DNA of 63,786 nucleotides, filler included, from Catajapyx aquilonaris (lineage: Eukaryota): NCBI GenBank assembly GCA_000934665.2. It is 3 parts of 3 records of this genome, joined end to end, with 100 filler letters (N's around TTAATTAATTAA, not from the genome) between each part and the next. Parts side by side here need not be neighbours in the genome. Positions count along the whole stretch, not along the records: positions 21,294 to 42,482 come from JYFJ02006115.1; 2 more parts are not named here. One strand, written 5' to 3'. Of the stretch, positions 16,101-54,905 are shown in pieces; position 1 is the first letter of the stretch; every line of letters starts with the position of its first letter. The position numbers and the translations under genes are program-made. Under the pieces are notes generated by a model. That model was not told the origin of the DNA and did no database searches. It saw nothing but the letters and a program-made list of their open reading frames with translations.

Positions 16101-18139
16101 TTATTTATTTATTTTTATTTTTTCCTACCCCTTGCTCAGGGCTATGGCCCTGTTTTGGGGGGGACACATTTCCAGTTTCCACATTACAAAATTTCTTATA
16201 TCTCCAATTCGCTCTTCTCAATTTCACTCTTAATTTATACATTAACAACACTGACCTTTTGTTCACTTGTAGTAAAAAAAGAGAAAAAGAAAATAAAGAA
16301 GAAAAAGGACAGGAAATTTGAGTATTGGTGGACATCTCATATTTTCGCCACAAACTATATTGGCTGCTTGGATTACTGAGCCTCGGCAAAGACTTCTTCG
16401 CTCGTCAAATCGCTCACATGTAAATGCCCCTTTACGATACGATAAATGCAGTTGAAATCAAGCTAAAAATTATGTACATGTTTCATTGTTGTATTATTTA
16501 TATTTGGGCATTTCCATGATGCATCCGTTCATTCGTAACACAAGTTTTGCCTACATGCACAAGTGTATTTTATTATAACAATGCCAGGATGCATGCACTG
16601 CATGCTTAATCCATTTCATGCAATGTGTGTGTATTGTTACAATAAAATACGCTAGTACATGTCGGCAAAACCTGCGTTACGAACGGACAGTATGATCTGT
16701 GTTTGCGTGGAAATGCCCATTTGGCAGTTGGCACACAATATTTTCCTCAAACGTTTTACTGCATCTACAGAGACAAATGGTGTAATTTTAAAGGGTAAAA
16801 GGTGATGTCATCCCAACCTGGACCCCCCTCCCCCTTCTGTCATCTTGGGTCATCAGGTAACAAACCCCCTCCCCCCTCTTGAGGATGATGTAATATGTGT
16901 ACGGCCCCTTTGGGGCTTACTGAAGGGCCTCACATGCAGGATTAAGCCCAGAACAATTATTGATGCCCTCTAGCCCCGATACGGTGGGAGTTTGCTGCCA
17001 TTATAATGTCACATGAGCACATATACTGTATGCCAATATCCAGACTCACAAACAAAAGTGCTTGGATGCTGGAGAGGACCATTTTCGGTATATATTTTCT
17101 AGGCAGACCTTGTTTGTCAACATACAAAGTAAGTGCATGTCAATTTTCATTGGGAATCATACAATAGTTAAAAAGTTATTGAGGAATGATTAATTTCCTT
17201 TTGAGAGAATCACCCTGTATTTCAGCCAGTAAGAATGGGAGATTCTTAATGTATCCAGCCTGGAATAAATAATCCTGGAATAGGAGATTCATTTGTTTTT
17301 ATCCCCTCTTATTGCAGCTCCTAGATGCACGTGCTCGTCATTTTCTCCAGCGTGGAGTCCCACCTCATCTGGTTCGTTCTGCCATGGCCCAGTTGCAACG
17401 AGAACAGCAGAGAGAACTCATGGAAACATCTCACATACCTGGCCATGCCAGCAACACTGAATCACTTGATCAAACTTTACCTCAATCTGCATCCGTGGCA
17501 CTCCCAGCTGGTTTGTGAATCATTGTAATATGTGGCCCAATGTTGTAGAGGGAATAAGAATGGATGGATTATTTTGTTAATATAATCCATTTGAAGAATT
17601 GCATTAGAAATTTATCTTCGTTTCTTCTTAGATTCTTCTAGTTCTACCATTTCAACTGCTACTCCAACCACTGCGCAAGACAACCCTGTCCTGGTCCAAC
17701 AGCTGGGAACAAACTCTGTACTGAATGAGTGCCCTGAAGCCACCAGTTCCCCACAAGGGCAGGCTGTTGTAGTAATGCCACAAGCAATCAGAGTCCCTGT
17801 GCAGACTTTAGCTGTGCCAGTCGTCAGTTCTGAAAGCAGGCTTTGTAACCCGAATGGCCAAGCCACATCAACCACTACACCACATGTGCAAGGTATGAAA
17901 ATTGTCACTGGACATGCAACTTACATGTTTGACATTGTCTATAAATTCAGGAGGTGACCATGTACATAAGGAAACCAGGGAAGACCATGTAGTGAGGGAG
18001 GCTGTGTCACAGTCCGCTGCTTCACATGCACAAGAAATTGCTGAGATTCCTTCTGAGATAGAGCAGTCAACTGATGGGGGTGTGGAAGCAGAGGCAGCTG
18101 AGCTAGCTGACTTAACAGTTGATGACGACGAATTATTAG
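1186..18139 (+). CDS. KMT2C: Histone-lysine N-methyltransferase 2C/2D (MLL3/4-like), internal exons only
   Basis: Phase-consistent GT-AG exons 1186-1385, 1442-1566, 1633-1765, 8193-8293, 11041-11797, 13024-13271, 17318-17510, 17632-17892, 17951-18139. Exons 1-2 encode NQRSILKWEADESLGANATISAVLYANLNCPDLKREYPTWSERVKQIAKIWRSLPPDKRAPYLQKARENRAASRIQKVQ, the KMT2C/D HMG-box region; later ARQQLRDLLQRQQ (LxxLL) and DDDELLG. The 5' PHD exons and 3' FYR/SET exons were not found in the window. Confidence 0.88.
3922..4225. mobile_element. MITE (possibly PIF/Harbinger-like)
   Basis: 25-bp TIRs AGGTGAATTCGTTTATGGCTGAGTG / CACTCAGCCATAAACGAATTCACCT; internal ATAAACGAATGCAG repeats. Confidence 0.75.
4712..5482 (-). 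mobile_element. Internally deleted pogo/Tigger-type (Tc1/mariner) element
   Basis: TA-flanked TIRs CAGTCAAATCCCTCTATAACGAA / TTCGTTATAGAGGGATTCGACTG; minus-strand peptide MAPKRKSLNVEEKRQILKK...KKGDIAKQYNI resembles the CENP-B/pipsqueak-type HTH at the start of pogo transposases and is truncated against the TIR. Confidence 0.85.
5546..6295. mobile_element. Second Sola-like non-autonomous element nested in 3705-6393
   Basis: TIRs GAGGAGCTTGCCAGCAAATCCAGATAAATCC / GGATTTATCTGGATTTGCTAGCAAGCTCCTC; ATAT TSD. Confidence 0.8.
6504..6840 (+). mobile_element. tRNA-derived SINE, family B
   Basis: GGGGAGGCGAAGTGGTGTTGCGGTAACG...GGGTTCGATACC head; tail GGTGCACTAAACCCTA(TTA)n; homologous to 55928-56344. 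Confidence 0.8.
8510..9697. mobile_element. Non-autonomous DNA element with GGACGTCC-type subterminal repeats (CACTA/EnSpm-like, tentative)
   Basis: Imperfect terminal inverted repeats (CC.ACACAACAC...) and clusters of GG(G)ACGTCC/GGGATGTCC motifs at both ends (8525-8712, 9470-9685). Boundaries approximate. Confidence 0.5.
12072..12699. mobile_element. Tigger/pogo-like MITE with a 15-bp tandem array
   Basis: TA-flanked TIRs CAGTAAAACTTCTATAAGTCGAA / TTCGACTTATAGCAGTTTTACTG; (CTTCGACTTAGGGAA)x4+ at 12616-12684; scattered TTCGAGTTA repeats. Confidence 0.85.
13689..13925. mobile_element. hAT (Charlie-like) MITE
   Basis: Termini GTGGTTCCCAACC / GGTTGGGAACCAC with GGTCGCGACCCC subterminal motif; related copy at 22820-23045. 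Confidence 0.65.
14089..15641. mobile_element. piggyBac-like non-autonomous element containing nested fold-back elements
   Basis: TIRs CCCTAGGACGGTGACGTG / CACGTCACCGTCCGAGGG, TTAA on the right and TCAA on the left; internal ~180-bp inverted repeats 14589-14768 / 15136-15325; central element 14844-15137 with ~45-bp TIRs. Confidence 0.7.
15870..16120 (+). mobile_element. tRNA-derived SINE, family C
   Basis: TGGCTGAGATGGTAACGTC...GGTTCGATCCCC head and GGAGGGTCTCTGACCTGCACCAAGGAGGTGTCTG body shared with 56446-56800; (TTTA)n tail. Ends approximate. Confidence 0.75.
16506..16719. mobile_element. Degenerate fold-back MITE
   Basis: GGGCATTTCCA...TTCGTAAC...GTTTTGCC..CATG...GTATTTTATT mirrored by AATAAAATAC...CATGTCGGCAAAAC...GTTACGAA...TGGAAATGCCC. 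Confidence 0.6.
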
Positions 18140-19537
18140 GTAAGAGTTAGGGTATGGAATTTGTGATCAAAACGGAATGGTTTCAGAAGGGAAAAAAACT
18201 TTCATTTACAATTTATCAGTTTTATGATAATAGCAATGAGCTTGAAATGGTGGAAAACTGCAAGCAATTTGTAACAGTTTTATCTTATTGAAATCGAGGA
18301 TGAAGGTAAGTTCTTTAAGAAAATGTTCACACCACATAATCTTCATTTGAAAAAGGGGGGGGGGGGGGAAAAAAACTCCATGACAGGCTTGACCCCATAG
18401 AGGCACACAGGCATCCTTGTCCCAGTGCTCGGTTCCTGGTCTAGACCTTTGGTGCTGTCCCTTGGCCAAAGTTTTACACTTTGTTCTTTGCCTGATCCTT
18501 CAGGGTTTCCAGGTGTTTGCTATGTTGTGAGAAACAGTGATATTAAATAATAAAATATAACATTCTTATAGAAAACAATCCACTTGACAATTTAAAAGTA
18601 TGTCACCTACTTTAGATCTTTTTTACTCTTCAAGTGCAAATGTAGAGCCACCACAAGCTGAATCCTTTCAGGCCTACGGATATCATATGATGCCAGAGCA
18701 TACTTTCCCACAGGGCCTACTACATCATATCGTCGGCATTAAAGAGAAAGGGTGAATTGACAATTTTTGAAAAAATGGCTAAAATCCTAATCTTAAGTTG
18801 ACATCACCCACCACATGTTTTGGTGAAACGGCAGATGTGTAGGTGGAGCAACGTGCCTGGATGAGAAAGTGGTTCCAGCGAGTATCCAAAATCAGTGTAA
18901 GGAGAAAGGGCGACTGTCCCTGATGCTAAGGGACAAATAAAGAGGGATAAAAATAAAGAGAATTTGGGAGTTAAGTTCTCGCTAACTAACAACAGCAGAA
19001 CCGATTTTTTTTTTGTGTAAGTGTAACTGACCTCTCTCTCACACATGCGTGATGTACTTTTCCCCTATTCTTAATGCAGTATTTGAAGAAGTCATTTGCA
19101 TTCGGGAGTCAATTACGCTGTCGTAAAATTTTAAGTGATGTCGTAACAAGCACCAAAAAATGCGGAAAAATGAGGTGCTCCGGATCCGTGATGCTGATTT
19201 TTATATTTAGCTATAACCTTTTGTCAAATAATAATTTTGTCAAAATTTGACTGATCTGAGAACTACTAGAAGTTAGGGGAACCCTAATTTTCACGGTTTT
19301 TATTGTGCCTAGAGGGAATGGTCAACCTCAATCACGACCTTTCTTTTGTGTAGTGAGGGTGGGATCCATTGTCTCCTCTTTCCACCAGAGTTGGAACTTG
19401 AAGAGGTCCGGATTTTTCGTTATCCCCCCCTTAAGGAGAAAGGGCCAATGTCCATTTATTATTTTACGCTTAACCCTTTGTCTCCTGTGGCCTGATTTGG
19501 TTGTATTAAATACAACCAAACAAAATATATTTTTTAA

Positions 19538-21193: not shown

Positions 21194-21293
21194 NNNNNNN
21201 NNNNNNNNNNNNNNNNNNNNNNNNNNNNNNNNNNNNNTTAATTAATTAANNNNNNNNNNNNNNNNNNNNNNNNNNNNNNNNNNNNNNNNNNNN
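21194..21293. other. Assembly gap / contig spacer
   Basis: 100-nt block of Ns with central TTAATTAATTAA (stop codons in all six frames). Confidence 0.97.
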
Positions 21294-21895
21294 TTCTTTG
21301 CACCATTGATAAGAGGACACAAAACTGCGTAACATATGTTTTTTTCATAAAATTCTCATTGAGTGACTCTAGCTTCATTTCCACCTTAATGAAGAACTTT
21401 GTTATTTGTTTGATTCAATACCCTGTGATAGGGCCAGGGGCCCTTTTAGGGGGGGAATGGGAGGTTTCCAAGGGAGGACGCTCTTAAGTAGTTCCTAGTC
21501 ATGTCAGACCCTTTTAATAAGATCTTGTCGATAGTGACAGACTTTGACAATCATGATGTCCTTCGAGTTATTGCCCATAATTTTAATATTTCCATGTAAT
21601 TACTAACCTATACTGATTATAATGATTTTATTTTACTTGTAATTTTTACATCTGACAGCATGACCATGTACAGTACAGTACTGGTATATTTGTATGATTA
21701 TTACATTTATGTCACGTTACAGTAGATGACATGATTTTCCTCTCATTCCCTTGGGATATACCTGATGGGGACATTTTTTCTGGGAACGTAATGTGTCGGG
21801 GGACGAAATTTCATAGAACCCCACCAGACACAGCTTGTGGTGTAAGGGAGCAAGGAGAGAGAATCCGATGGTTTAAATGATGGTTATTATTCTAG

Positions 21896-22154
21896 CCTAT
21901 TTCTGAACTGGAGAAGGAGATGCTGGGAGGGCAGAGGCTTCAAGGACCTTTCACTGCCGAGGAGGTCAACTTCATGCTGGCTCAGCAGAAGATGGAAGAC
22001 CGGTCAGTTTATGATTTCCTGCCTCATTTAAGCAGGCTAATGAGATTTGCTTTTCAGTTTCCCCCTCTTTACGGCTGTTCACCGCGTCTGCACCAACCAG
22101 ATTCCACCAGAGGAGATGATCAATTGCATTCGCAATCACCCAGAGCACATGTAA
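21896..22154 (+). CDS. Gpdh1: Glycerol-3-phosphate dehydrogenase (NAD+), cytosolic; last two core exons
   Basis: Exons 21896-22002 and 22058-22154 splice (CG|gtcagt...ttttcag|T) to [67 protein letters not shown], the characteristic GPD1/Gpdh C-terminus (LQGP...FPLF.AV...NHPEHM). Upstream exons were not found before the gap. Confidence 0.93.
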
Positions 22155-22629
22155 GTAATCAGTGGCTTGAATGATGTCGCAAGATATCAACTGCACGTAA
22201 TTATCAGCATTGCTCTTGGTTACATGTTTTGGTCATGATTTGGGTTTTGGGGTATTATTATTATTCTTGTTATTGCCATTATTATGATTATAATTCCTTT
22301 TTGATTTTGCTAAGTCTTAAGGCATTGTGCAATTAGTACAGGTAAATGGATGAGCCTTGCTGCTCCAGTTAGCTTGCTTGTACATCAGATATATTGGTAG
22401 TATCTATTTGCATGTTATTCCATCCCATGTAGAGCCTTTGTCAGGATAACTTTTAAGTGTAACTGACATGCCAAACATAAATTGTCAGCCAGCCATAATT
22501 TGTCAATGTGCCATGATGGGAACCATGTTTTATCCAGTCATGTACAGTGGTTGTCTTACATTAATACCAAGTCTATTTTTGTTATTGTTACATAGATTGT
22601 TACATTCATAGGTCACTCGTTGCCATGTA

Positions 22630-22789
22630 CAGTGTTGGTCATATATCGAGGCAACTGCCAGCGACATTTTCCGAAGCGGCAGAAGAAGGAATCTTGCTTG
22701 CCCGGCTTGAAGTATCCTTATCTTCGATTCCTTATTCTGCCACTTCGGAAAATGTCGCTGGCAGTTGCCTCGATATATGACCAACACTG
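22630..22789. mobile_element. Near-perfect hairpin MITE (Tc1/mariner-type ends)
   Basis: TA-flanked CAGTG...CACTG; ~64-bp arms with two mismatches around a ~33-nt spacer. Confidence 0.85.
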
Positions 22790-22819
22790 TACCCTTCTGT
22801 GCAGTTATAAAACCTATTT

Positions 22820-23045
22820 CAGTGGTTTCCAACCTTTTACCAACTGCGACCCCCTAAACATGATTCCATAAATGTGCGCCCCCCTTTCCTCCCTCCCCCG
22901 GCCCCACCTACAACTGCCCCCGTTCCATAAAACATACACCCTGTATGGCCGCAAAAATTGTTCAATTGACACAGAAATTTGAAATTTAAAAAAGTTGAAC
23001 CAAGGCTCACTACCCTCCCTGCAACCCCTGGGTTGGAAACTACTG
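22820..23045. mobile_element. hAT (Charlie-like) MITE
   Basis: CAGTGGTTTCCAACC / GGTTGGAAACTACTG termini. Confidence 0.65.
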
Positions 23046-23303
23046 TACTGCCCTATTTTGAATTGCCACTGGTATTTATTGTGCATTATTATTTTTGCAT
23101 CTTTCCCAGTGCTTTGAAGTTCCTCCTTTTGTGCAAGGAATGGGGGTTAATATGTTTCATCTCAGTTGGTGAGAATGGTGTACTTGGCATTTTGATTTAA
23201 CCTGATTGGAAATGTTGGTGCCTTAATTTCTATGATAATTTTAAAATTAAGGTGGAAATTAAGTGAATCATTAGTCAGGAGAATTTCAAGTCTACGTGTT
23301 TAA

Positions 23304-24242
23304 CTCTTTATCTACCGCCATAAGGAATTTCACTCTGGTGAGGTTATATTATATTTCAAACCATTGCCTTGTCATGGGCCATATCCGGATGAGTCAGCCG
23401 TTGTTTTTTCCCTCATGGCCAGCTGCATCAAAGCCAACCTTCAAACCACTGCTGGCTGTTGACAAGTCGCCACGGGGCGACATATTTTGTATTTTTTTAT
23501 TACTAGGGTACTTCCAATGAATCAGCTGTAAAGCCTCAAATGCACTGCCCAGAAATGTTGCGTCCGTGTTTCAAAGTCGTTCACCATCGGCCCAATGAGC
23601 CTCAAGAAATTCATGACGATTCATTACAATTTAGGAAGTAAATCTCCAAATTTAGAAATTACTTAATAAAAGTAATTGCTGGAACCTATATCAAATATGG
23701 CTGCCATGTAATTGGGTTTTTACTAATTAAGTACTTTGTCATGCCTTGTTTTTCACCATAGTGCAATGAAATGATGCCAATAATATTATTAACTTCAACT
23801 CCATTTCATGGGTAATTTTAGTGTATAGGAAGGAAATATTAGGCAATGCTGCATTGAATGGGACACGAGTGCAGTCAACCATAACCCGAACCTCAGCATC
23901 TTTTTTCACGGCTTATTACCGTCTTGTCACTGAACCTAAACATACCAAACTTGCACAATTTACTGTATATAAGAGGACCTGAATCATGCAGGAATAGTTT
24001 TTCACTTCATATGTAAGCATTATTGCACATCCGAGAGCTAGATAATGGCTCAAAATTTGAAAATACTTTTGCACATTTTCACATCAACATTTGATTGACT
24101 TAAAAATATCAAATACTTGTCAGATGAAGCTTATATTGTAACAATTCCGACGACATCTCAAGCATTAACATTGTGACCTTGACACTCGAGATACAGCGAC
24201 TTTTTTGTTATCCTGAATTTCGGGATAGCAGGAGATAAAGGG
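23304..24242. mobile_element. piggyBac-like non-autonomous element
   Basis: TTAA on both sides; imperfect TIRs CTCTTTATCTACCGC / GCAGGAGATAAAGGG. Confidence 0.6.
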
Positions 24243-25518
24243 TTAAAAGGATTCTTAAAATTCGGACTTGATCAAGTTGTGCCAAAATTTCCGTTAAACC
24301 TGATGCTTAAGCAAGAACTTCTGAGACACTCAAAGTATTGGTGTACCTGGTAAGGGGCATTCCCCTCCCCTGGCCATTATGAAGTGGTTTTTCATTCTAC
24401 TAATTCTGTAAGTCTGATGAAAATCCTAGATAGTGAAATGCATCTTATCCACCTCAAAATTTCTTAACGCTCATAAAGAAATATTTATCAAGTCAAGCTT
24501 CCCTTGCATTATTGACCAGATATTCACATAGCCACTTTCACTTTGTATCTCACGGCAAAATGGCCACAATAATATTCGGCTAATAGTCAATCTGGGTGCT
24601 TTGGAATTGTGGTTTTATAACTGCTGCAGTAAGGTATTACTAAGTCACCTGATTTCATTAGGAAGTGTTACTACAGCATAAGCATGTCCACTCTGTTGTC
24701 ACAGTATTTTTAATATTCCCTGTGGTGTTGACCTTAACCCATCAATGTACTTCATTGGTCATTGTTCTGCTAGCCACCTTCCCATCATAACTTCATGGAC
24801 TTGTCATAGAATTAAGGCTCAGGAAATATCTTACTGCCTTGGGGCAACTAAAGCCACGTGTGCCAGTGTATGTATCATGAGCAAGTGGTGACCATTGCAA
24901 TAGGTATTAATTTTATCAATGCAAGAGTGATAGTGCGGATATTGATTTGTGAAACAGTGCCATGAAATTCACTGTCACCTGCCAACAAATTCAGTGCCAC
25001 AGCTAAAATAATGTGCCTTATTAAGTTCTGTACAGAACATAGGGCCAGCTGCATCAATACAAGTTAAGAGAAAAGTTATGTAGAGGTTTTTAAAATGGAT
25101 AAACAGGATGTTGTTTCTTAATAGGAGTTGACACAACTGGCCCCAAATCTCATTGAAATATAAGTACAAGAGATAAAGGACTTTTTAATGGCATAATGTA
25201 TACTTAGGACGTAATTTGCAGTGAGAGTGTCTCATATGGCATATTTTCAAGCTACTGTTGCTTTAATTTGTGGAGTCACTATGGTGCATGCTCTGTTTGT
25301 ATAAGAGAGCATGGACATGCAAGTTGTGGGAGGACCTACCTGGGAGTACTTTTTGGGAAGATAACTGGTGCAATAACGTGTGACCTAAATTGATAGTGGC
25401 TTCTGATATTATAGAATCTGTTATAGGGGCATAATGTAGCATACTGACTGTTGAAGAGTGCATGTATGTATTGTGTATGTTATGGAATAACCTACCCCCC
25501 TTTTTTTTCTCACACCAG

Positions 25519-25534
25519 GGTCAAGGGATAACTT
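25519..25534 (+). CDS. Candidate alternative GPDH micro-exon (C-terminus ...HMVKG*)
   Basis: Acceptor CCCCCTTTTTTTTCTCACACCAG| then GGTCAAGGGATAACTT then |GTAAGT; in phase with the AT| donor it reads ATG GTC AAG GGA TAA. Confidence 0.4.
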
Positions 25535-25667
25535 GTAAGTTCACAAGCCCCTCTGTTGCAAAAAAAATTTAAAAATGAAGAGTCTAATCTAGCCAGTGAA
25601 AACAATTACAATGTGCATGGCAGCGACATGGCAGCTAGCTGACCATCACATTATTTTGCGAACTTTA

Positions 25668-25880
25668 CGTGATTTACAATGGCTCTGATTTTTACAAGCA
25701 GAGTAAGCAAATGAAATTTTGTGTAAATAAGAAGGTAACAGATATATCTGTAAAAAAATGACATTATTTTTCTAAATTTGTGATTTACAATAGCTCTGAT
25801 TTTTACTAGGCAAAGTAAGAAAATCAAATTATATTGTGTAAATAAGAAGGTATCAGATATCTATGTAAAAAAAAATGACT
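25668..25880. repeat. Two-copy tandem duplication (~110-bp unit)
   Basis: GTGATTTACAAT.GCTCTGATTTTTAC...TTGTGTAAATAAGAAGGTA.CAGATAT...TGTAAAAAAATGAC occurs twice head to tail. Confidence 0.8.
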
Positions 25881-28800
25881 AATGAACACTTTTTGGATAT
25901 ACTTTTTGTTTCATTTTGGTTTTTAAAAGTTGCTGCAGGAGCATGATATGTAATGAGTTTATCCTTATTATCAGATGTCTGGAATACTGTACCAAGCCAT
26001 AAATAGGATAAACTCGCTACGCATCAGGCATCCGCAGTAGCCCGTGATGGCAAGGTATTAGGTAAAAGTTTAAGAAGGAGATGAATAACGAAACTTGCAG
26101 AACTGTATTTATTAAAAGAAAAAAAATTAGGTCACATTTCGTAAGAAGCTGGTTAACAATAATAAGACAGGTGTTGGATACACTCCAGTAGCAGCTCTGT
26201 TGACAAAATTCAAGTGTTCTTCCACAAAATAATGTGCTTTCTCTGTGGCTTTTCGCCATCACTAGAAAACAAAGTGAAAATTTTCTAACCACATGAAGTT
26301 AACAAGAATTACCTCATAAATATGAAAACAGTAACATGATAGATCATGGGTCAGAGGACGCCACCAAACACTGCCTCTGGGGTGGGTTGCATCAAAATGT
26401 GATTGCGTTTTTTTTTTTTAATGGAAAAAAGATGAAAATGATTCCACTTCTAGCATGCACTTCAGAATGCGATGTCTCCCCGTCTAATAACAAGTCATTT
26501 ATCGACTTGTGGATTAACATGAAACAAGGACAATGTGATTTTGTCCCTTAAAACATCAATAGCACTATTTTTTTACCTGACTCCTCCCAAATTTTGCAAA
26601 AAAGTGAAATGCCACCTGACTTATTAGGGTTAACTGAGCTTCTTTGGCATTTTGTACATTTCACTAGAGGGAATGCTCAGATAAGCATTATGGATCATAT
26701 TCAGAGAACCGCAGGGTCTAACTTTTATTCCTGTCGGAATAAGCAGGTCTACAAGGAGTCTCACTTGAGAACATTGAATAGGCTTATATCCTCCTATCCC
26801 AGGGTGGAATAAAGTGTGATGTCACTCAGTATGGCAAACAGTGTCCCTGTAGCCAACTGGTGTCACTAAAGCATCTAGCAGCAGCTATCAAACTCTTCTG
26901 GCAACTTGATATATACCAGTTTTTTTATTTTCTTGCTCTAAACCCCTTGCATTGAACTTTTAATGACACCTTCAAATATAACTGCTGACATTTGTGGTAT
27001 TGCCATGTTGTGCCCAGGAATAATAGGGAACTACTTTGAAAGTGTTCGTGAATGAGCCTTGACCAGCTTATTTTGCCCTTATTCCTGGAATTCTGAATAT
27101 GAGACATTTCCCTATTCAAAAATTATGACCCTGTAAGACTAAACCCAGCCATAAAAACTGGCATTGTGCATACATTATGAATACACAATATAAGTTTTTA
27201 TGAAGACATTGTTGTGCGAATGCAGGCATGTTTTTGAACACCAATTACTTCAATCGATGTTCATAATCGAGAAACTGGGGTCACAATGAACTTTTTTAAC
27301 AAGTTACACAACAGTATTTTGAATCGCATGATTCATTCATTCATTCATTACATCACCGCATAATCCCAGAAATGGGGTAGCCAGCGACGACTAGTGTCTC
27401 GTTGGGTTGCCATGTCAAAAACTTGGTAGGGTTTTTGTTTAAGTGGGGTGGAACCAAAGCAACTAAGGCTATCTGGGGGCCTTCCAGTACTTCAATAAGG
27501 CATTGCACCATTACAAGTATTATGATAAGGGGGCATGTGGGACTCAATTTTTTTTTTAATGCAGGAATTACTGTGTTCATTGTCTATCAGTTAATTTTTA
27601 TATAAGTGGTGACAAGATAACAATTTTCTACAGGGCAAAAACAAGCTAATGAGCTGTGGGTATAATCTACCATTTACGTGCAACAAGTAAGTTGATGGAA
27701 TGTTTCAGCCCGCTTCAGGGTCTCTGTTAATGTCAGCTTTGTTCTTCTCTAAGGACTTGTTGTATGAAGGCAAATTAGGGAAAATCGCCAATACCAAATC
27801 CGACATTTGCAGATTCTTCCTTAATATGAGTTGATACAACCAGTCCTTATGGAGATGCGTAATACCATATTAACAATTGAAAGAGAACACGACTGGGTTG
27901 GAAAACTTTTTGGAGTGACAATTCCTGGTGTTGCACTTTCCTGTAACTCAAATGACAGCTTGAATTATTCCTAAGATGTTTTTACCCACTCTTTTGCCCA
28001 ATGACAGCTAGATGGTTTCAGTGCTGGGGTTTTGTTGTTGTTGTTGTTGTTGGCGTGGTTGTGGTGCAGATCCTGCACAGACTGCTATACAAAGCGGATG
28101 AGGGCTCAAAGGGAGGCATTCAAATCCACATCCATTTTTTATCGCCTGTCCTCAATTCTACAAGTGAGGTCACTAAATATGGTTTGTATGCAGACCATAA
28201 ATTTTCACTCACTGAGGTATGTAGGTTTCCACTTGACTGACTAACACTTGGGCATGATGTTCAACACTATTGCTTCAAACAACTAACAGCCTATGTTGAG
28301 GAGAGGAGTGAAATTCAACAAGAATGAAAGATATGTTACCTGGAAAATTTTTGCACTTTGAACATTGCAATGGCACAAAGATACTCCGCTAAATAAAACA
28401 AACCAGGTACGTTGGAAACCTGCATCGCACAAATTGAAATATATTTTGCTGTAAAATGCATTGGGACTACTCTGCAACATGGGCAATGTGGGACAACATT
28501 CAGTTGGACATAGGACTGCAGGAAAAAATTCAAATCTACTGGAGCACATAGCAGTTGGTCATCATGTTTGACTTGGAATTTGTTAAATTTTATATGGGCC
28601 AATGTTATTGACTACACCTGTGTCAGTAATATAACTAGGGGACTCTGCAAATAAAAACTCCACTCCAAGCATTTTTAAGGATCTAAATTGGCCAATCAGG
28701 GCAGAATTCATGGGTATAATTACTTCCTATTAGTCTTCTATGAGGAATGAGTTCCATTTGATTTTCATGCCTTACTCAATGCGCTTATTACTAACCCTGC

Positions 28801-30349
28801 GATTGTTATTAACCTGTATTACTGTAAAAGGGTTAAAGCTGAGTACTTTTCTTAAGAGGTTGATTGATGTACCGTACCTGAAATGGCAAGGTGTTTTCTT
28901 GCTTGTTGCCATGTAATCATATCAGTTGGCCTCTTACAGCAGAGGTTTTGACCCTGCAATTTGCTGACAACTGTGATGGCTAGTATGCATATATGGTTAG
29001 GTATCTGTCAAAAGTATTAGTAGTAAGAACTTCACTGGTGTGTGCACTGCCACAATTTTATTGATTCCTATATCATTAACAGTAGGTGTCATCTGAGAAA
29101 GATTAGATATCCTTTGCGTAAGAGGTGGACTGATCCCAAATGACAAGCATGGGGCATTATGCAGTACTAGATAGAGACAAGTAAAAAAATCTGACCTCTT
29201 AGGAATGGCTACTTCTTCCCTTCTGTGCAAGTAGTTAAAAGAGTGGGTTTGTGATATCACTCTTTTCCTACAGCATCAAGTTCTTTCCTCCATATCTAAG
29301 AAGTATCTGCAATTGTGGCAAGTAGCCTTTCCACTTGCTCTCTGTTGGTGGTAGTCCTCGTAGCACCTAGAAGCTCTTCATGGTTCCACTTGCGCTTCCT
29401 CTTCCTCAAATGTACATTTAGCTATGTAGTTATTAAAAATAGTTTGGCTCTTATTACTGATTATTTATTTCATTATTTTTAAATGATTTCTTCATTCAGA
29501 ACTAACATCTTTCATTTGTATGCAGCAATTGCAACCATAATCAGGATTGCATTTTGTTGCAATTCACTTTGCATGTGTGCATGTTACAAGCAATGCTTAT
29601 GGTATGGTTGTTTGCAGCATGCTTGAGTCCAACATTAATTTGGGTGGCCGACAAGATGAGTGTGATTTCTTGAGATAACATGGACTACATTTTGTCTGCT
29701 TCCAAACTGATTGGCCAGATGAAGTCACTTGAAAATTTTCTGTTAATAAATGGGTAACACTAAAGTGGTGTGATGGATCTGTTTGGTGTCACATGAAGGC
29801 CTAGGAAGCAAGGCCCAGCATAATGACCTTTAGTAACCATGCACTGGCAAAATGACAGACACTTTCGTCATTTGTGCCTACTTCCCCTGAAAAGTTCGTT
29901 TTAAAAGACCTTGCCTGATGTTCAGTGGCAATATGTCAAAGAAAACGTGTCACTGCTCAGTGTGTTAAAAGTAAGCCAATGAAGCCATTGGTGTGGGACA
30001 CAGTAAAAGCACTTGAGTGTGAAAGTAAAATTACTGATACCATCCACAGTCGTAGAGACAGTAAGAAGAAATTGATGCCAGAATTACTTGTGAGACTTGG
30101 GATGCACAATGACTTTTTCTAACAAGTTAACCTGGATTGAGGAGAGATGTGGATTCCCAAGTAGCATTTTAGCTCGAGCCAATGAGGCTGAGAGGGTGCT
30201 GATGATTCCGATTGGGGAACTGCTTCCTAGACCAGCAGGCAGAGTGGATAGCAGTCTGTTCTGTTGTGTAAGCACAGTGTAGGTTGTGAGCACGTATGAC
30301 TCACGAATAATGACAGGCTATTCCAAACCTTTATTTTCTTTCTATCCAG

Positions 30350-30365
30350 GAGGTCAAAATTATAA
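30350..30365 (+). CDS. Candidate alternative terminal exon of GPDH adding PTS1 (...HMRSKL*)
   Basis: Acceptor CCTTTATTTTCTTTCTATCCAG|G AGG TCA AAA TTA TAA completes the split codon AT|G from donor 22150/22151; AATAAA signals downstream near 31117 and 31134. Confidence 0.6.
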
Positions 30366-31359
30366 GGATGAAGAGGAAGGTTGACACCTGGACAGCAAAT
30401 CATTGGAAGACTGAGAGGGGCAGTTGTTGTGTTCCAGGAAGTATGCTTCCAGGAAATTGCAGCAATCACTGTATTATGCATATTCCTTTTTTTTCTTTTT
30501 TTTCCATTTTTGTCTCCCAGTCATTTAAATGTGTAGTTGTACTTATCTGAAGTATCTAATTGTTGTGTTATGACAAATATTACAGCAATAAGTTGACATG
30601 ATGACCACCTTTTAAGTTAGCTACTTTGGGAAACTCGGGTGCATGGGCTGATGATCAGTTTTGCATAAATTTCCAGGTGGCCTTGACTTGTGTGATGGCT
30701 TGAGTGAAGAAATTTTTAAGTGCTCCCTCTTTTTGAGGTAGCCACATTTAGTAGGGCATAGGGAGTAGGTAGTAATAGTGCAGTGATGTAAAGGATCTTG
30801 GATTGAAATGCTCAAGGCAGTTTATATTGTGGTTTTGCACAAGAGGGTATTAGGTCTGTTTCATCATGCATGCTTAGAAGTCAAAGGCATGGTAAAATGT
30901 CAACAGCAATTTTTTTGTAAATACAACAGCAGTGTTGAGGTAGTGTAATTTCCCATGTAACATTTGGATGCATATATTTTTATGGCATTGAACATACTGT
31001 ATATTACAAATCAACCACATCCGACCAACATGGTGAACTGTGCAATATTGCTGGCTCCCACCAGCAAAAAAACACCTTTGTAGTAGTCCATATTGTGATG
31101 AAACATTGATATTGAAAATAAATGTTGAGATAAAATAAAAAACTAAACTTAATTCAGTGAGAGTTCTTTCATGTCATATTTTCTCAAGCTGCTGCTGATA
31201 GTACAGCATATGACGGCAGATCAAGATAGACTGAAACATTTCCCACACTGCACTGTCTTGTTTCTCTACTTTTCTACGTAAGTCTCATGGGTTCAAATAA
31301 CTATGCACATTTATGTTGGCAGTTAACTTTTTTATGTTTTTCTGCGTGGTATCAATAGT

Positions 31360-32010
31360 AATAATTATAATAATAATTATTATTATAATAATAGATTTAT
31401 TACCCTTCTCCTACAAACATGTTCAGGGTGGGGAGGGGGACTCACCATTATTATACTAATGTATTAATTTACAGATAATGCATTTATCGTACACTGAATC
31501 AAGGGGTCATAGTATTATGTCGCAGAATTGAAGTCTTTTTGATGATGCCATAAAATAGTTGTACAGACTGAACATGTCTTTTTTCACCAAATGTTGAAAG
31601 AGTAAACTCGCTGAATAAGAGGGGAACTGGGGCAACCCAGCCAAAAATTTATCTCTATACTCTGAGAAAAAGTAACATTCATACAAAAAGTGGAAAAGGT
31701 CAAAAGCGTCTGAGTGATTACATAGTGTACAGTGGTTATCTTGATCCAAGCGGAGAATGTATCCTTTTAACCAATAAGATGTAGAGTTGTTTCTTAGATT
31801 AGCAGTCAGTCTTATAACAGGAAGAGGTATGGTAACTGGTAATCGAAGTAACTTTCTCTTAGATGGTCCGTTAATAAGTACTTATAGTGGGCATAGTTCT
31901 CTTTTAAATTAGAGCCACAAGTAATATCCTCAGTTATAGAAGATTGAATAAAAGATTCTACAATGTTCTCTAAATTAATTTTATCTAAGTTGTTGAACCA
32001 GATCACCACA
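31360..32010 (-). mobile_element. 5'-truncated degenerate LINE 3' end, related to the element at 43971-48588
   Basis: Minus-strand peptides ANLRNNSTSYWLKGYILRLDQDNHCTLCNHSDAFDLFHFLYEC parallel ANLRNESAWFYINGYKIQLDLENYCSLCNIKEEFTIHHMLYIC of the full LINE; ends in AATAAA plus a (TTA)n tail. Confidence 0.8.
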
Positions 32011-33951
32011 TAATTATCATCCTTGTATTACGTGATCCTTGTATTATTTCAGTTTGGTGAGAATGAAGGCTAAATCCTTGTAGAATTCTTCCAGGTACAC
32101 AGAATGAGAATGCCCTAGTGGTACTGATTCATTGTTGGCATCATTATGGAGCAGCATTGTTTTGAGGTTTCTTTTCGATGAGTCAATAAATAACATCCAT
32201 ACATTCACATCATACGTACATACTGTATATTAAACTTTTCCATCAGTTCAGTAAAACAAGTAAAACAGGCCACCATCTTGAGAAAAGTACAGAATAAAAT
32301 CCGGTTCTTTGTTTCTGAACCATGACAAAGACGTACCAGAAGCCAATAAGTTATTTTCCTTGAGCCTATAGGTTCGGCAGAATCTTAAGGAAGACCCAAC
32401 CTGGGAGTTGCCTGGGAGTAATAATAATATTTGTAAATCTTTTAATTCAAGCTGTGAAAAAGTTGGAATCACTACCTGAAACATTATGAAAGTCCTTATC
32501 ATAAGTATGATCTTTTTCAGAGTGTTTAGGCATGTCTTCTACTTTCTCTGGAGGTACACTACAGGTATTCCTGGACCATGAAGAAAAAGGGGTATTGCTG
32601 ACATGAGGTTTGGAAAGAAAATTCCCCTGTTATTATTTCGATTGAGCCCAGGTAAGCTACACGAACAAAAGTATCAGTCATCATGGGATTTCAGGGTTCA
32701 GGGTTCCCTCCTCTCCCGATCACAGGGACTCCAAATGTCCAAATGGTAGACTTTATCTCACCTTTTGACCTCTTATGAAGGTCTTCTACACACGTGTGAC
32801 ACTCTGTGGGGGCCATGGGTTATCATGCTCACAACCAAGGGACACTTTCCAAGTGCCACTCGTGGATTTTCATGAAATTTGGTGCATTCTCAAGGAATGA
32901 AAAACGCACCTAAAGTGACCTGCTAAAAATGACCTGTGACTCCCTTTGGAGGTCAACCTGTAATATCCGAAAACTCTCCGATTTTATTGGAATTCAGTGC
33001 ATTGGTGCAAGGGATGAAAAAGACACCTAAAATTACCTGCTCAAAATGACCATGTGACCACATTTTGAGGGGGTTAGAAGTCAACTCGTAATATTCCTAA
33101 AACTCCAAATTCCCATTTTTGATGGCGTCTTCAACTTTTAATGGTATATCATCTGTGCCCAATTTTATCACATTGTTCGGAAAAACGAACATTTCATAGC
33201 AGTTGGCTGCTGAAATGGAAGAACGTGATGCTCCTAAGGCAGCTGCAGGAAGTGCCAGAACCAGTGGAGCTGCCTCGTCCACTGCCACTACCTTCCCAGT
33301 TCGTGCTTCCGCAACACCGAAGGTGGCCAATGTGTGCAACCACTCCCCAACCAGGTACTGGCCCTTCACAAACCCCCTGTCGTCCCCAGGGGTACATGTC
33401 GCACAGGAGCAGCCAGATGAATGTGATCAGCCCCGTGGCCTGTTATATTAACGACAAGCCTCTCCCACCACTAGTGACTCAGGTAAAACCAAAGGTTAGT
33501 TGTAGGCCTAATATTTGCAAAAGAAAATGTCCACAATCAAATCAGACGAATGAAGTCAGGTTAATGGTCATTTGTCATCACACAATTTCAGGCCACCTCC
33601 CCAGGATCAACTCCAAGAAACTGCATGCCTGGTAATGGGGTCGTCGCCAGCCTTTAGAGAATGAAAATCAGCAGCCGGCCACCCCTGACCCATCCAAGGA
33701 GTAACATAAAGACATGGCTCCAATTCTTCCAGAGAAGTGGTATGAACCGCCAGCCGTAAGTGTCTTGAAGTTGTCAGAAGCAAGGGTGATGCTGTCCTCT
33801 TCCCAAGTTGACAGTTGTATAGGTTGAATGAATGAATGAAACGGAGAAAGTAACAAAAACAGAAATAACCAAAACAATTTATTAGCTTTAAGTGCCCACA
33901 TATTAGTAAACTTCGCTGTAGGATCAGCGGCATCCTTTGCCACTCACTGAC

Positions 33952-36900
33952 TCATTTATTGTCAGCGTCATCATCCGTCTCGGCATCAGCTGCATCTGAA
34001 TTATCCTCCGTGGGCAAGACGATATCGTCTTCTGACTCACCATCTTCTTCTGTCGGATCTTCCTCGTCTTCACTGCCACAACCTGAAGATCCATCCTCCA
34101 CCTTTGCAGGATGGCAGAGAAAAAATGATAAAATTGTGCTTTTCGCAACTTGCAACTACTCATAGTTTTATGTTCTCAGGGAGTCAACATATAAGACAAC
34201 ATTTCTACGCATACAACCAGAGTAATTGTTACCTCCTCCTTCTGCTGTTCTTCTTCATCTCTCTCCGTTTCTGCCTCCTCCTTCTGCTGTTGTTCTTCGT
34301 CTGTTTCTGCCTCCTCTTCCTCCCCCTCCCCCTCTTCCTCCTCCTCCTCCTCCTCCTCGGCCTTCCCCTTAAGTTTGAGTTTTCCCATGTACAGGGCCTC
34401 GCCCCAGCCACTGTCCCTGTACATCCTCTTCACAGCTTGTACCAGCTCCTCCAGTACTTTCCTCAGAGACGGGATCACGTTCAGCACCCTTCCACCTCCC
34501 AGCTCTCCCTCCTGAAATGGAAGCACCAATAATAATAATAACAACAAATCAGACATCCTTATGCTGAAGTAGGGGTCAGAAAGTACTGAGGCATATTCTT
34601 AATCTTGCATGAAAAATCGCTTGCCTTCCATCTGAAGATGGCCTTCTGCAGAAAGCGAGTCGAAGTTTGCACTTCTCGAAGGTGTTTCTCGACTGTGTCC
34701 TTCCGTGATTTAAGTATTCCCTTCAGGAAGGGGATGGCGTACTCCTTGTACTTCTGCACAAAAGCATTGCTCAGCTGCAGGAATAAAATAGTGAAGCATT
34801 GATGACCTCATTTCAAAAGTACCTTTGTCATGGCTAAAACACTAACAATTGCACTTCTACAATGGGCAATTACTCCCTTTGTATTAATGCAAATAAACAT
34901 AAAACTCTGTAGTAGGAAATTGATGTGGTTTGCTTGTCCTCTTACAGTAAAGGTCGAGTATGCCATAGTCTTGTTGAACATGTCGTGTTCGTACACGGCA
35001 GTGACTTGGTTAAAAATCTTGGTGTACTTGACCCATCTATCCATCCGATCATCCTCCGAGAGATCGTCACTGCCCGTTGCCAGTTTCTTCACAGCTTCAA
35101 CTAGAGCACTAAAAATACCCTTCTGGTACACATCAATTGACAGCCTGAAACGCATTAAAAATTTCATTCACACAGTCATAGTGCACAAAAGACAAAAAAA
35201 TGTCCCTGTTATTGTAAATGATCATTAACTTCTGTTCCCAAGAATCCAGATTTACACAATAGAGTTCAACACGTACTTGGAAAGAGTCGGGTATTCTTCT
35301 GAGGCACGCTCTCTCTTTCCTCGCACGGCTGCAACCTCAGCAACCAGATCCTGCGAAAGCTTGACCAGGACTACTGGGAGGTCAGAGCATTTGGTCAGGT
35401 ACACTCCAAGGATGAAACCCACTCCCAGGTTGAAAGCTGTGCCTTGAAGAACGTGCCCAGCGTTGTCCAGCCAGCGATGCTTCAGGTACTTGTTCGCACA
35501 CTCGCCTAAACCAACAAGTTACAGTTAACGAACTTCTTAACTGGTTTCAGCATAGCAGTAATTACACATATCAGTCATTACTTGCCTAAATCGCTGTGCA
35601 ACTGATCTGTAGGGCTTAACTTGATAACTGTTTCCAGCAGCTTAAGATGTGCAACAGCAGTGTCCAGTCGCAACACGCACTCCTGGAACCCGGCCAGGTA
35701 CTGGAAAGCTTCCGGCACCAGGCTGCTAACAGTAATGAGCTGAGAGCCACGCTGGTTTATCCGAAGGGCCATCTTGCTCAGGGTGGCTGCCACGAAAAAT
35801 AACAAAAATGAATTAATCCCAACATTCCAGAAGCAAACATTGGATCCCAGTAGATATTAGTCATTTGTAGGGGTAATTTTATGATGAAATCCAAGGGAAT
35901 TTACTCCTGAGAAGCCTCATGTTGCTCTTGCTGTGCAGGTCGTGCCATCCGAGCACTGAATTAATGGTCTGGAAGAGAAGCGAGAAGCAGGAGCCCATCC
36001 TTGCAGCCTCTTCCGTGAGCATTGCAAATGCGTCCAGCATGCCATCATTCGACTCAATCAAGTTCTGCCGAAGGAAACAAGTACACAAATGAAGTCACCA
36101 GAAACATGCTGAATGTAACGGACATTTCGTTATAGTAGGAAATCTGACTTTTGAAGAATTCAGCAAAAATACTGTTACAACAGTTTGTGTTTCACCTGGA
36201 AGTACTTGAAGACCTTTTCCAGGTGGGAGCAGAGTGACGGAAGGAGATTGATGCATTGCCTGGCTAATTCCTCTTCGGTGTAATTGGCGGTTAGGTGAGT
36301 AAAGCCAATGCTCTTTCCAGTATATCTGGACCTGCTTCGGACAGGAGCGGCCTTCTTGCCGTCATGTGCGACCAGACAATAGTCCAGCTTACATTTAAGA
36401 TCTTCAAGCAGGAATAAAAGCACCTCCGGAACTAGCAAGTCATCCTGAAAAACATGGATCAAACAGTAGCTATCTCTTTAAAAAATCACTCCAGGATGAA
36501 CCTCACCTCCCATATTGATTCGAGACAAAGCATCTCTTTCAGGAGCTCCATCACAACAAAATCCATCTCTCGCAGAAATGGAATGAGCTTAGTAGCTCCA
36601 ATCTCACCCACGCATTGCTTACTCTGCCCATGGACAGAAGCAACCTCGTCCTGGGTGGTTGGATGCTGACTCCTGCCACTTGTCAGAGACACTCCGGACG
36701 CATGGCTTGGCTGGTGGGATACGACTCGCTGAGTGGTGGATTTTCCCTTCCCCTTTCCCTTTCCTTTACCACTGAAAAAATTGAGAGGAGTAGTCCATAT
36801 GCATATTCCCATAGCGTAGGCTACTCACCTCTTCCCGGATGATTTCTTCTTCCTCCCAGCTTTGGAAGATTTTTGCAGTGCTGCACAGCTGCCTTCGTGC

Positions 36901-54090: not shown

Positions 54091-54905
54091 TATCTTGACC
54101 TGACAAAAATCAAAGAGAAAAAGAAAAAAAAAACCATGCTGACACCACAGGTGAGTGTACTTACCTTATAATAAAAGAGGAAATATTGCACATCATTCCA
54201 AGTATTTTCATGCTAGTCACATGAGGCAGCACTTATGATTAAATAACAAGCGCACAAATTTGGCAGAGTTGCATAATTTGTCAAATAGGAAATACATGAT
54301 ATCAGTAAGGATTCCCGTATTCAAAAACTGAGCTCCCTAGCTAGCAGCATGTCCCACTCTAATGAAACCCTCTTTTTTAAACTTCTTCCCAAATCAAATC
54401 AAAAGGACTGTCGTGACTGCTCACCTGCACTCACTGAAGCCAAGATTCAATGTGCTACACTGGCCACCTGCCAAACTCACCACACCACTTTGCATATTAT
54501 AAATGCAAAAAAAGGTCATTTTAATGCATGCTACCTGCCACAGCATCTTCTTGTGGTACTGCTTGAGTTGGAGATAATCAATTTTAAGGCTTCCCTATAC
54601 ATGAAGCCATCGGTAACACAGGACTAAGTTAGTCTAGCCCACAGTATAGTAGATTCAGGAGTCCAGCTTAGCAATAAAAGGCGCTTTAAAGGGGAATAAA
54701 TTAAGTTTATTACAACAACTCGGAGACTTATAACAATGACAGTAAGAATGGGGTTTTGGTGAGAAACAAGGAGAGAATCAAGGAACAAAGATAAAGTGGG
54801 TGACTGTTGTTCCTAATTTACTTATTGCTGTGTCTTTGGTCCATTGCTCAAGAGGGTTTCGAAATATTGTGTGAAGGATGGAATATTGGGAATAAAGTTG
54901 ATATG

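What the first reader, a model, noticed from the sequence alone, without database searches (positions are those of the whole stretch)
30328..30365. Hidden terminal exon appends a canonical peroxisomal signal (SKL) to cytosolic GPDH
Seen: 8.2 kb downstream of the AT| donor a strong acceptor (CCTTTATTTTCTTTCTATCCAG) is followed by G AGG TCA AAA TTA TAA, giving ...NHPEHM-R-S-K-L-stop, with AATAAA signals about 750 nt later. Known: C-terminal SKL is the consensus PTS1 bound by Pex5 and upstream basic residues favour it. Cryptic PTS1 isoforms arise by alternative splicing or readthrough for fungal GAPDH/PGK and by readthrough for mammalian MDH1/LDHB, and yeast Gpd1 enters peroxisomes via PTS2. Inference: splicing produces a peroxisomal GPDH that could run a G3P/DHAP shuttle to reoxidise beta-oxidation NADH or supply DHAP for ether lipids. 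The 16 coding nt are invisible to ORF finders. I cannot confirm that this is unreported.
Basis: partly seen in the sequence, partly recalled or inferred. Interest (0 to 1): 0.88.

Follow-up and report, generated by a model that had tools for sequence, protein, structure and literature searches.

The report
Possible SKL tail exon of GPDH
Downstream of an arthropod glycerol-3-phosphate dehydrogenase gene lies a tiny candidate exon that would add a peroxisome address tag (SKL); many other arthropods make such a tagged form, but the only RNA data available for this animal show the site read straight through as untranslated tail of another isoform.

Summary
The sequence is exactly as described: donor CAC AT|GTAAGT at 22150/22151, with TAA in frame if unspliced, and CCTTTATTTTCTTTCTATCCAG|G AGG TCA AAA TTA TAA at 30350, reading ...HPEHM-RSKL-stop.

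The donor is a real alternative-splice donor. Contigs of the one run found (X1) join 22150 to 25519 (tail VKG) and to 27634 (tail AKTS). From there a 3'UTR intron (27686 to 29274) leads into a terminal exon that runs unbroken across 30350 to at least 31023. No contig joins 22150 to 30350, so the "hidden exon" lies inside another isoform's 3'UTR exon.

Comparison still favours a peroxisomal form. Of 120 listed animal GPDH proteins, 69 carry a short tail after HPEH[x], and 32 of these end in [SAC][KRH][LM]. Lobster, crayfish, shrimp, crab and scarab beetles have -SKL. The candidate acceptor ranks 3rd-4th of 509 AG sites by pyrimidine content and gives the only PTS1-like tail in the interval.

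I put a real minor or tissue-restricted RSKL isoform at about 0.55 and a chance motif at about 0.4. It is a new member of a known kind, not a new mechanism.

The parts
21896..22002 (+). Penultimate coding exon of GPDH (..[35 protein letters not shown])
   Evidence: tblastn with the full-length GPDH P0187: 71% identity, E 8e-19. RNA joint 22001->22057 skips a 55-nt GT..AG intron. A loose end before 21894 encodes ..RVSEAFV.., the upstream GPDH exon, which lies off this piece.
22058..22150 (+). Last common coding exon ([30 protein letters not shown] + AT of the Met codon)
   Evidence: 62.5% identity to P0187. 65 library proteins match it at E<=0.001.
22151..22156 (+). Donor GTAAGT overlapping the in-frame stop TAA (22152-22154). 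Unspliced RNA ends the protein at ...HPEHM.
   Evidence: Sequence. Two joints leave from 22150.
25519..25779 (+). Alternative 3' exon B: G GTC AAG GGA TAA gives tail VKG, stop at 25529-25531
   Evidence: Joint 22150->25519, GT..AG, and contig 25519-25779. Translation, sequence.
27634..27686 (+). Alternative exon C: G GCA AAA ACA AGC TAA gives tail AKTS, stop at 27647-27649. The rest of the exon is 3'UTR.
   Evidence: Joints 22150->27634 and 27686->29274, both GT..AG. Translation, sequence.
29274..31023 (+). Terminal exon of isoform C, all 3'UTR. It contains the candidate acceptor.
   Evidence: Joint 27686->29274 and an unbroken contig 29602-31023. The end shown is the contig's end, not a mapped poly(A) site.
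30328..30349 (+). Candidate internal acceptor: pyrimidine tract plus CAG
   Evidence: 17/20 pyrimidines, rank 3-4 of 509 AG sites. No RNA joint seen.
30350..30365 (+). Candidate coding stretch G AGG TCA AAA TTA TAA, giving (M)RSKL-stop if joined to 22150
   Evidence: Analogous -SKL tails sit at the same junction in decapods and beetles.
31117..31139 (+). Two AATAAA hexamers (31117, 31134)
   Evidence: Contig cover stops at 31023, before them, so their use is not shown.

Best explanation
This is the 3' end of a cytosolic NAD-dependent glycerol-3-phosphate dehydrogenase gene (GPD1/Gpdh1 type). It chooses among alternative terminal exons from one donor that sits on top of the stop codon (CAC AT|G TAA GT).

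Shown: unspliced RNA would stop at ...HPEHM. Splicing removes the TAA, and the first base of the next exon completes the Met codon. RNA contigs show two such choices: 25519 (tail VKG) and 27634 (tail AKTS). The second is followed by a 3'UTR intron and a long terminal exon from 29274 onward.

Inferred: the strong acceptor at 30350, inside that terminal exon, is a third, minor or tissue-restricted choice. It would give ...HPEHM-RSKL, the counterpart of the PTS1-tailed GPDH isoforms that many arthropods make at the same junction. Such a tail would be bound by Pex5 and carry the folded enzyme into peroxisomes. There it could turn DHAP plus NADH into glycerol-3-phosphate plus NAD+, acting as a redox shuttle for beta-oxidation and controlling the DHAP pool used for ether lipids.
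For: Gene identity.

The donor is used with more than one acceptor: joints 22150->25519 and 22150->27634, both GT..AG.

Candidate site:
- CAG acceptor with 17/20 pyrimidines, rank 3-4 of 509 AG sites in 22200-31100.
- It gives the only PTS1-like tail in that interval.
- Its first base, G, keeps the conserved Met.

Comparative survey: of the 120 proteins listed, 69 have a tail of 1-40 aa after HPEH[x]. 32 of those 69 end [SAC][KRH][LM], against 0.29% of all tripeptides.

PTS1-type tails by group:
- -SKL: Homarus americanus isoform X3 (SLMSKL), Cherax (SFKSKL), Penaeus vannamei, P. indicus and a third Penaeus record (SFKSKL), Scylla olivacea (TLKSKL), Trypoxylus and Oryctes (..QSKL), and an unnamed transcript contig (YSKL).
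- -CKL in Cylas, beside a VKQNQSG isoform.
- -AKL/-AHL in Bradysia, Polypedilum, Chironomus and Condylostylus.
- -CHL/-SHL/-SRL/-CRL in Hymenoptera.
- -SHL/-CHL/-CRL in ticks.

Many of these sit on transcript-sized contigs of 1.2-2.5 kb, so they are not only gene predictions. Tails that follow HPEHI rather than HPEHM fit the same split codon AT|N.
Against: - No contig of run X1 joins 22150 to 30350, although the same run shows four other joints in this gene.
- One contig reads through 30350 without a break (29602-31023). The stretch is therefore certainly present in RNA or DNA as plain exon or UTR.
- Other isoform junctions have word depths of 27-109, so the SKL junction, if it exists, was very rare in that sample. 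This is my reading; the tool warns that contig depth is a poor measure.
- In other arthropods the PTS1 isoform is common enough to be assembled routinely.
- Not all arthropods show one: the four Hyalella members read (tails IPNCFKYTATS, RKSHNN, CNFDIKHVKISGVN and none), the mites and the horseshoe crabs in my sample have none.
- Pyrimidine richness is a weak predictor here: verified acceptors have 9-18/20.
- The survey query included a tick -SHL tail, which may favour similar tails in the ranking.
- No localisation, Pex5 binding or conservation of this particular exon in a close relative was tested.
Confidence: 0.55

Rival explanations
1. Chance motif in a 3'UTR. The stretch 30328-30365 is ordinary untranslated sequence of the terminal exon (29274 onward) of the AKTS isoform. 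A T-rich run followed by CAG and an in-phase SKL-stop arose by chance and is never spliced to 22150. On this reading the species makes only the tail-less, VKG and AKTS forms.
For: -: an unbroken contig 29602-31023 across the site, and a joint 27686->29274 that makes the region part of a longer exon.
- no joint to 30350, although four other joints of the gene were recovered.
- 3'UTRs are T-rich; another equally pyrimidine-rich AG lies 171 nt further on at 30521.
- With 509 AG sites and a rate of about 0.3%, one or two PTS1-like tails somewhere in the interval are expected by chance.
- Some arthropods with several annotated isoforms have no PTS1 tail, for example Hyalella.
Against: - The one PTS1-like tail falls on the 3rd-4th best acceptor of 509, which I estimate at roughly 1-3% by chance.
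- It is the canonical SKL, after a 4-residue tail like the 4-6-residue SKL tails of crustaceans.
- It starts with the G that preserves Met.
- A PTS1-tailed isoform is widespread in the sample: 32 of 69 tails.
Confidence: 0.4
2. The acceptor is real but serves only the untranslated region. It would be an alternative 3' splice site for the 3'UTR intron (27686->30350 instead of 27686->29274), shortening the UTR of the AKTS isoform without changing any protein.
For: A 3'UTR intron with donor 27686 exists, and the 30350 acceptor is stronger by pyrimidine count than the one used at 29274 (17 against 14 of 20).
Against: No such joint appears. It would leave the in-phase SKL-stop unexplained.
Confidence: 0.05

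Closest known systems
Drosophila melanogaster Gpdh1 isozymes GPDH-1, -2 and -3 made by alternative 3' exons
   Same: One gene, common coding exons, and isoforms that differ only in a few C-terminal residues added by alternative terminal exons (PMC4708006, passage read). A C-terminal 'variant PTS1' on Gpdh1 is mentioned, with peroxisomal trafficking unconfirmed (PMC7477296, passages read, citing Wojtas 1997, which I could not open). Here the same layout is shown by RNA joints. Chironomus has a QNL tail beside an ..AHL tail.
   Different: The tails here are VKG, AKTS and, predicted only, RSKL. That Drosophila GPDH-1 ends in QNL and sits at flight-muscle Z-discs is recalled, not seen in a call.
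Annotated -SKL isoforms of decapod GPDH (Homarus americanus XP_042234677.1, Penaeus vannamei XP_069977173.1, P. indicus XP_063605933.1, Cherax KAK8726599.1, Scylla olivacea A0A0P4WIZ7)
   Same: A 6-residue tail ending SKL directly after HPEH[M/I], beside other alternative tails of the same gene.
   Different: Those are supported by gene models or transcripts; the exon here has no RNA joint. The decapod tails CxFDxxHT and PNCFK have no counterpart in this window, so the species need not be a decapod.
Fungal GAPDH and PGK with cryptic PTS1 by alternative splicing or readthrough; mammalian and fish MDH1x and LDHBx by readthrough
   Same: A cytosolic NAD-linked or glycolytic enzyme gains a C-terminal PTS1 in a minor isoform, giving dual cytosol and peroxisome location (PMC9549241 and PMC8919083, passages read).
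   Different: Different enzymes. The mechanism here would be terminal-exon choice at a donor that overlaps the stop codon, not readthrough.
Yeast Gpd1 (PTS2) and mammalian GPD1 in peroxisomes
   Same: The same enzyme, proposed to run a peroxisomal G3P/DHAP NADH shuttle (PMC9549241 and PMC8919083, passages read).
   Different: Yeast uses an N-terminal PTS2 controlled by phosphorylation. For mammalian and zebrafish GPD1 no targeting signal is known (PMC8919083). Here the route would be a spliced PTS1.

Membership tests
NAD-dependent glycerol-3-phosphate dehydrogenase, GPD1/Gpdh1 type (Pfam PF01210 + PF07479) | C-terminal domain sequence ending ...FPLF...NHPEHM | tested here: met
   tblastn with P0187 (a 358-aa protein carrying PF01210 and PF07479): residues 286-351 align to 21899-22003 and 22056-22151 at 71% and 62.5% identity, E 8e-19.
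NAD-dependent glycerol-3-phosphate dehydrogenase, GPD1/Gpdh1 type (Pfam PF01210 + PF07479) | N-terminal NAD-binding domain and catalytic residues | not testable with these tools
   The piece starts at 21294 (linker) and residues 1-285 are not in the window. An RNA loose end before 21894 encodes ..RVSEAFV.., which fits the upstream exon.
Arthropod GPDH alternative-3'-exon system (Drosophila Gpdh1 type) | One donor after the common exons, split codon AT|N, stop codon overlapping the donor | tested here: met
   CAC AT|GTAAGT with TAA in frame. Relatives end at HPEHM or carry tails after HPEH[M/I].
Arthropod GPDH alternative-3'-exon system (Drosophila Gpdh1 type) | Two or more alternative terminal exons used in RNA | tested here: met
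   Joints 22150->25519 and 22150->27634 in run X1.
PTS1-bearing (peroxisomal) GPDH isoform | C-terminal tripeptide fitting [SAC][KRH][LM] | tested here: met
   The predicted tail RSKL. This holds only if the junction is used.
PTS1-bearing (peroxisomal) GPDH isoform | mRNA in which the tail exon is joined in frame to the common exons | tested here: not met
   No joint 22150->30350 in the contigs of X1, and a contig reads through the site. One run kept as contigs, so rare forms can be lost.
PTS1-bearing (peroxisomal) GPDH isoform | Pex5-dependent import into peroxisomes | not testable with these tools

The most novel reading that the evidence does not exclude
Across protostomes, an alternatively spliced micro-exon puts a PTS1 (SKL, AKL, CHL, SHL and the like) on a share of cytosolic GPDH. 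That would be the missing import route for a peroxisomal glycerol-3-phosphate/DHAP NADH shuttle in animals. In this species the exon (RSKL) is nested as an internal acceptor inside another isoform's 3'UTR exon and is used only in some tissues or states, so standard annotation and a single RNA sample miss it.
Probability: 0.5. Interest if true: 0.6.

Novelty: new member of a known kind. Interest (0 to 1): 0.45.

Why it matters
How GPD1 reaches animal peroxisomes is stated to be unclear for mammals and fish (PMC8919083, passage read). For Drosophila only a 'variant PTS1' has been noted, and import has not been confirmed (PMC7477296, passage read).

The survey made here shows that PTS1-type tails on GPDH are frequent, and apparently conserved, in ticks, Hymenoptera, beetles, lower Diptera and decapods: 32 of 69 tails. 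I found no paper that discusses this (searches, open-access library only).

That makes a peroxisomal G3P shuttle in arthropods directly testable with tail fusions. The value of this particular exon is smaller. It would be one more member, notable only for hiding inside another isoform's 3'UTR exon.

Tried and rejected
- RNA runs: the look-up of sequencing runs on 21800-31300 listed no holder on record as RNA, only X1 of unknown kind. I asked with a long stretch, which can hide a small RNA, and the cap was one search.
- X1 turned out to hold spliced RNA. No further run could be laid, because the cap was one call.
- Own genome: none is held, so the upstream exons and paralogues could not be looked up.
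- Protein search with the 40-aa window stretch, lengths 'longer': 1 candidate, none scored.
- Protein search with P0033 was wasted. That record is a chimera of a bacterial penicillin-binding protein and a GPDH C-terminus. It did yield the full-length GPDH P0187.
- Decapod-type tails (CxFDxxH, NCFK) were sought in 22151-34000 and not found.
- Earlier findings of this scan: nothing near the site, by words or by sequence.
- Papers not held: Wojtas 1997 (PMC305727) and Faust 2012 (PMC3443258). A guessed id also failed. These two may bear on what is already known for Drosophila.
- An apparent upstream neighbour on the + strand (HMG-box gene, 1420-18150) was rejected as context, because it lies on a different piece joined by an artificial linker.
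- An antisense reading (the TTTATT in the tract as a poly(A) signal of the minus-strand FANCD2 gene) was considered. Its last recognisable coding exon (the acidic-tail ORF, not itself a FancD2 Pfam match) ends near 34.2 kb. Nothing ties it to 30.3 kb.

Full report
**What is in the sequence**

- The last common coding exon of a glycerol-3-phosphate dehydrogenase gene ends ...AAT CAC CCA GAG CAC AT at 22150. It is followed by GTAAGT, so an unspliced message stops at once (ATG TAA) after ...NHPEHM.
- At 30350 a pyrimidine-rich tract and CAG are followed by G AGG TCA AAA TTA TAA. Joined in phase to 22150, the G completes the Met codon and the protein would end ...HPEHM-RSKL.
- Two AATAAA hexamers lie at 31117 and 31134.

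**Context**

The window is not one stretch of chromosome.
- It is three pieces of about 21.2 kb joined by N44-TTAATTAATTAA-N44 linkers at 21194-21293 and 42483-42582.
- The GPDH piece is 21294-42482.
- A tblastn with the full-length GPDH P0187 finds only residues 286-351, at 21899-22003 and 22056-22151. The rest of the gene lies off the piece.
- The HMG-box gene 'upstream' on the + strand is on another piece and is not a neighbour.
- Downstream, on the minus strand, lies a FANCD2 homologue. Its Pfam FancD2 matches run from about 40.4 kb down to about 35.3 kb, and ORFs that seem to belong to it reach 41.0 kb and 34.2 kb.

**RNA evidence**

The one run returned for this stretch (X1, kind not on record, kept as contigs) holds spliced RNA. 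Laid on 21294-33500 it shows four GT..AG joints:

| Joint | Meaning |
|---|---|
| 22001->22057 | the 55-nt intron between the two common exons |
| 22150->25519 | alternative terminal exon, tail VKG |
| 22150->27634 | alternative exon, tail AKTS |
| 27686->29274 | intron within the 3'UTR |

- A loose end before 21894 encodes ..RVSEAFV.., the upstream GPDH exon. The gene is therefore expressed and whole in the RNA.
- Translating across the joints gives ...HPEHMVKG-stop (stop at 25529-25531) and ...HPEHMAKTS-stop (stop at 27647-27649).
- The 27686->29274 intron therefore lies in the 3'UTR, 37 nt after the stop. The exon that begins at 29274 is untranslated.
- One contig runs without a break from 29602 to 31023, straight across 30350.
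- No contig joins 22150, or 27686, to 30350.
- Contigs also cover most of the introns (24 of 30 bins have some depth), so the run holds unspliced RNA or DNA as well. Contig depth cannot be used to rank isoforms, as the tool itself warns.

Two conclusions follow:
- The 'hidden exon' sits 1076 nt inside the terminal 3'UTR exon of the AKTS isoform, and its use as an acceptor is not seen in the only RNA sample I could look at.

**Is the motif more than chance?**

- Among 509 AG sites in the transcribed interval 22200-31100, the candidate has 17 of 20 pyrimidines and a CAG. That is rank 3-4. One of the two sites above it, 25519, is a verified acceptor.
- It is the only place in the interval where a tail of 31 residues or fewer ends in a PTS1-like tripeptide, even under a relaxed pattern.
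- In 22200-40000 only one other place, 35831, gives a strict PTS1 tail. That one has a long tail and a poor acceptor.
- Strict PTS1 tripeptides are about 0.3% of tripeptides. My rough estimate for such a tail at one of the best few acceptors is therefore 1-3%.
- This is suggestive only, because verified acceptors here range from 9 to 18 pyrimidines of 20.

**Comparative evidence**

A full-library HMMER search with the 31-residue last exon returned mostly genomic fragments. It also returned a tick model with the tail NPDFDIPSHL. A search with that tick C-terminus listed 120 GPDH proteins:
- 50 end at HPEH[x].
- 69 carry a tail of 1-40 residues.
- 1 carries a longer tail.
- 32 of the 69 tails end [SAC][KRH][LM]: CHL 14, SHL 8, SKL 4, CRL 2, AKL 2, SRL 1, AKM 1.
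- 4 more fit only a relaxed pattern.
- 33 do not fit.

Cluster look-ups show that the PTS1 tail coexists with other tails in the same species:

| Species or group | Alternative tails after HPEH[x] |
|---|---|
| Homarus | PPNCFK.., CGFDEQ.., SLMSKL |
| Cherax | CGFDEH.., PPNCYK.., SFKSKL |
| Three Penaeus records | CTFDKEH.., EPNCFK.., KQNKKYML, SFKSKL |
| Scylla | CTFDQQ.., PPNCFK.., TLKSKL |
| Cylas | VKQNQSG, ..ACKL |
| Chironomus | none, QNL, ..FAHL |
| Bradysia | QNFGK, ..SAKL |
| Condylostylus | QKF, SESLAKL |

- Oysters have ..PRL, ..HRL and ..PHL.
- Counter-examples: the four Hyalella members read carry the tails IPNCFKYTATS, RKSHNN, CNFDIKHVKISGVN and none, with no PTS1 among them. The mites and horseshoe crabs listed show none either.
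- Many PTS1-tailed proteins come from transcript-sized contigs, so they are not only predictions.
- A bias should be noted: the query carried a -SHL tail, which can lift similar tails in the ranking.

**Weighing**

- The prior that a pancrustacean or arthropod has a PTS1-tailed GPDH isoform is high.
- The candidate is the only place in this locus that could encode one, and it sits on one of the best acceptors.
- Against this stand the missing junction in a run that recovered four other junctions of the gene, and the read-through contig.
- I put a real but minor or tissue-restricted RSKL isoform at about 0.55, a chance motif in the UTR at about 0.40, and a UTR-only alternative acceptor at about 0.05.
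- If the isoform is made, import by Pex5 is likely. -SKL is the canonical PTS1, and a basic residue just upstream is said to help (recalled). It is untested for any arthropod GPDH as far as my searches show.

**What is known**

- Alternative 3' exons giving GPDH-1, -2 and -3 in Drosophila are textbook (PMC4708006, passage read).
- A review notes a 'variant PTS1' on fly Gpdh1 and says that trafficking to peroxisomes is unconfirmed (PMC7477296, passages read).
- For vertebrate GPD1 the route into peroxisomes is called unclear (PMC8919083, passage read).
- Yeast Gpd1 uses a PTS2. Fungal GAPDH and PGK and mammalian MDH1 and LDHB gain a PTS1 by splicing or readthrough (PMC9549241, passages read).
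- Seven full-text searches found no paper that describes PTS1-tailed GPDH isoforms in arthropods. The library holds open-access papers only, and Wojtas 1997 and Faust 2012 could not be opened.
- The -SKL isoforms of lobster and shrimps are already in RefSeq.

**Verdict**

The gene, the donor and the general idea (a spliced PTS1 on GPDH) are sound and have many parallels. This specific exon is unproven and lies inside another isoform's 3'UTR exon.
- If real, it is a new member of a known kind.
- The broader pattern of PTS1 tails across arthropod GPDH deserves a bench test more than this one site does.

Noticed in passing
window 21194-21293 and 42483-42582: N44-TTAATTAATTAA-N44 linkers. The window is three unrelated pieces of about 21.2 kb joined artificially, so genes on either side of a linker are not neighbours.
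   Followed up: yes
window 27647-29274: The AKTS isoform has an intron in its 3'UTR (27687-29273). It starts 37 nt after the stop codon, close enough that it should not trigger nonsense-mediated decay (the decay rule is recalled).
   Followed up: partly
window 34179-41069, minus strand: A FANCD2 homologue. Seven ORFs match Pfam FancD2 (PF14631), from profile position 156 to 1232. It ends in an acidic tail and converges on the GPDH 3' end.
   Followed up: partly
window 1420-18150, plus strand (another piece): A gene with an HMG-box fragment (PF00505, E 5e-05) followed by long Gln/Pro/Ser-rich ORFs. It recalls KMT2C/Lpt-type proteins; that likeness is recalled, not tested.
   Followed up: no
window 44229-48524, minus strand: A non-LTR retrotransposon with endonuclease (PF14529, PF03372) and reverse transcriptase (PF00078, E 7e-35) in long open frames.
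   Followed up: no
window 51685-54165, minus strand: Exons of a two-pore-domain potassium channel (Ion_trans_2, PF07885, E 4e-12 and 9.5e-05).
   Followed up: no
window 22645-22654: Four clustered A>G differences in one contig of run X1, next to several loose ends at 22655-22765. This is either another copy of a repeat or A-to-I editing of a repeat in the retained 3' region.
   Followed up: no
window 25660-25860: A tandem duplication of about 120 nt just after alternative exon B. The contig of X1 stops inside it at 25779, so that end may be an assembly break rather than a poly(A) site.
   Followed up: no
proteins P0001 and P0004 (closest matches to the last exon, 81% and 77%): In these unnamed relatives the frame runs on after HPEHM (WV...) with no stop over the donor. 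There, splicing to a downstream exon, or a longer read-on tail, is needed to end the protein.
   Followed up: no
protein P0033: A public 1204-nt contig encodes a chimera of a bacterial penicillin-binding protein and a eukaryotic GPDH C-terminus ending VELDAHL. This is most likely an assembly artefact.
   Followed up: partly
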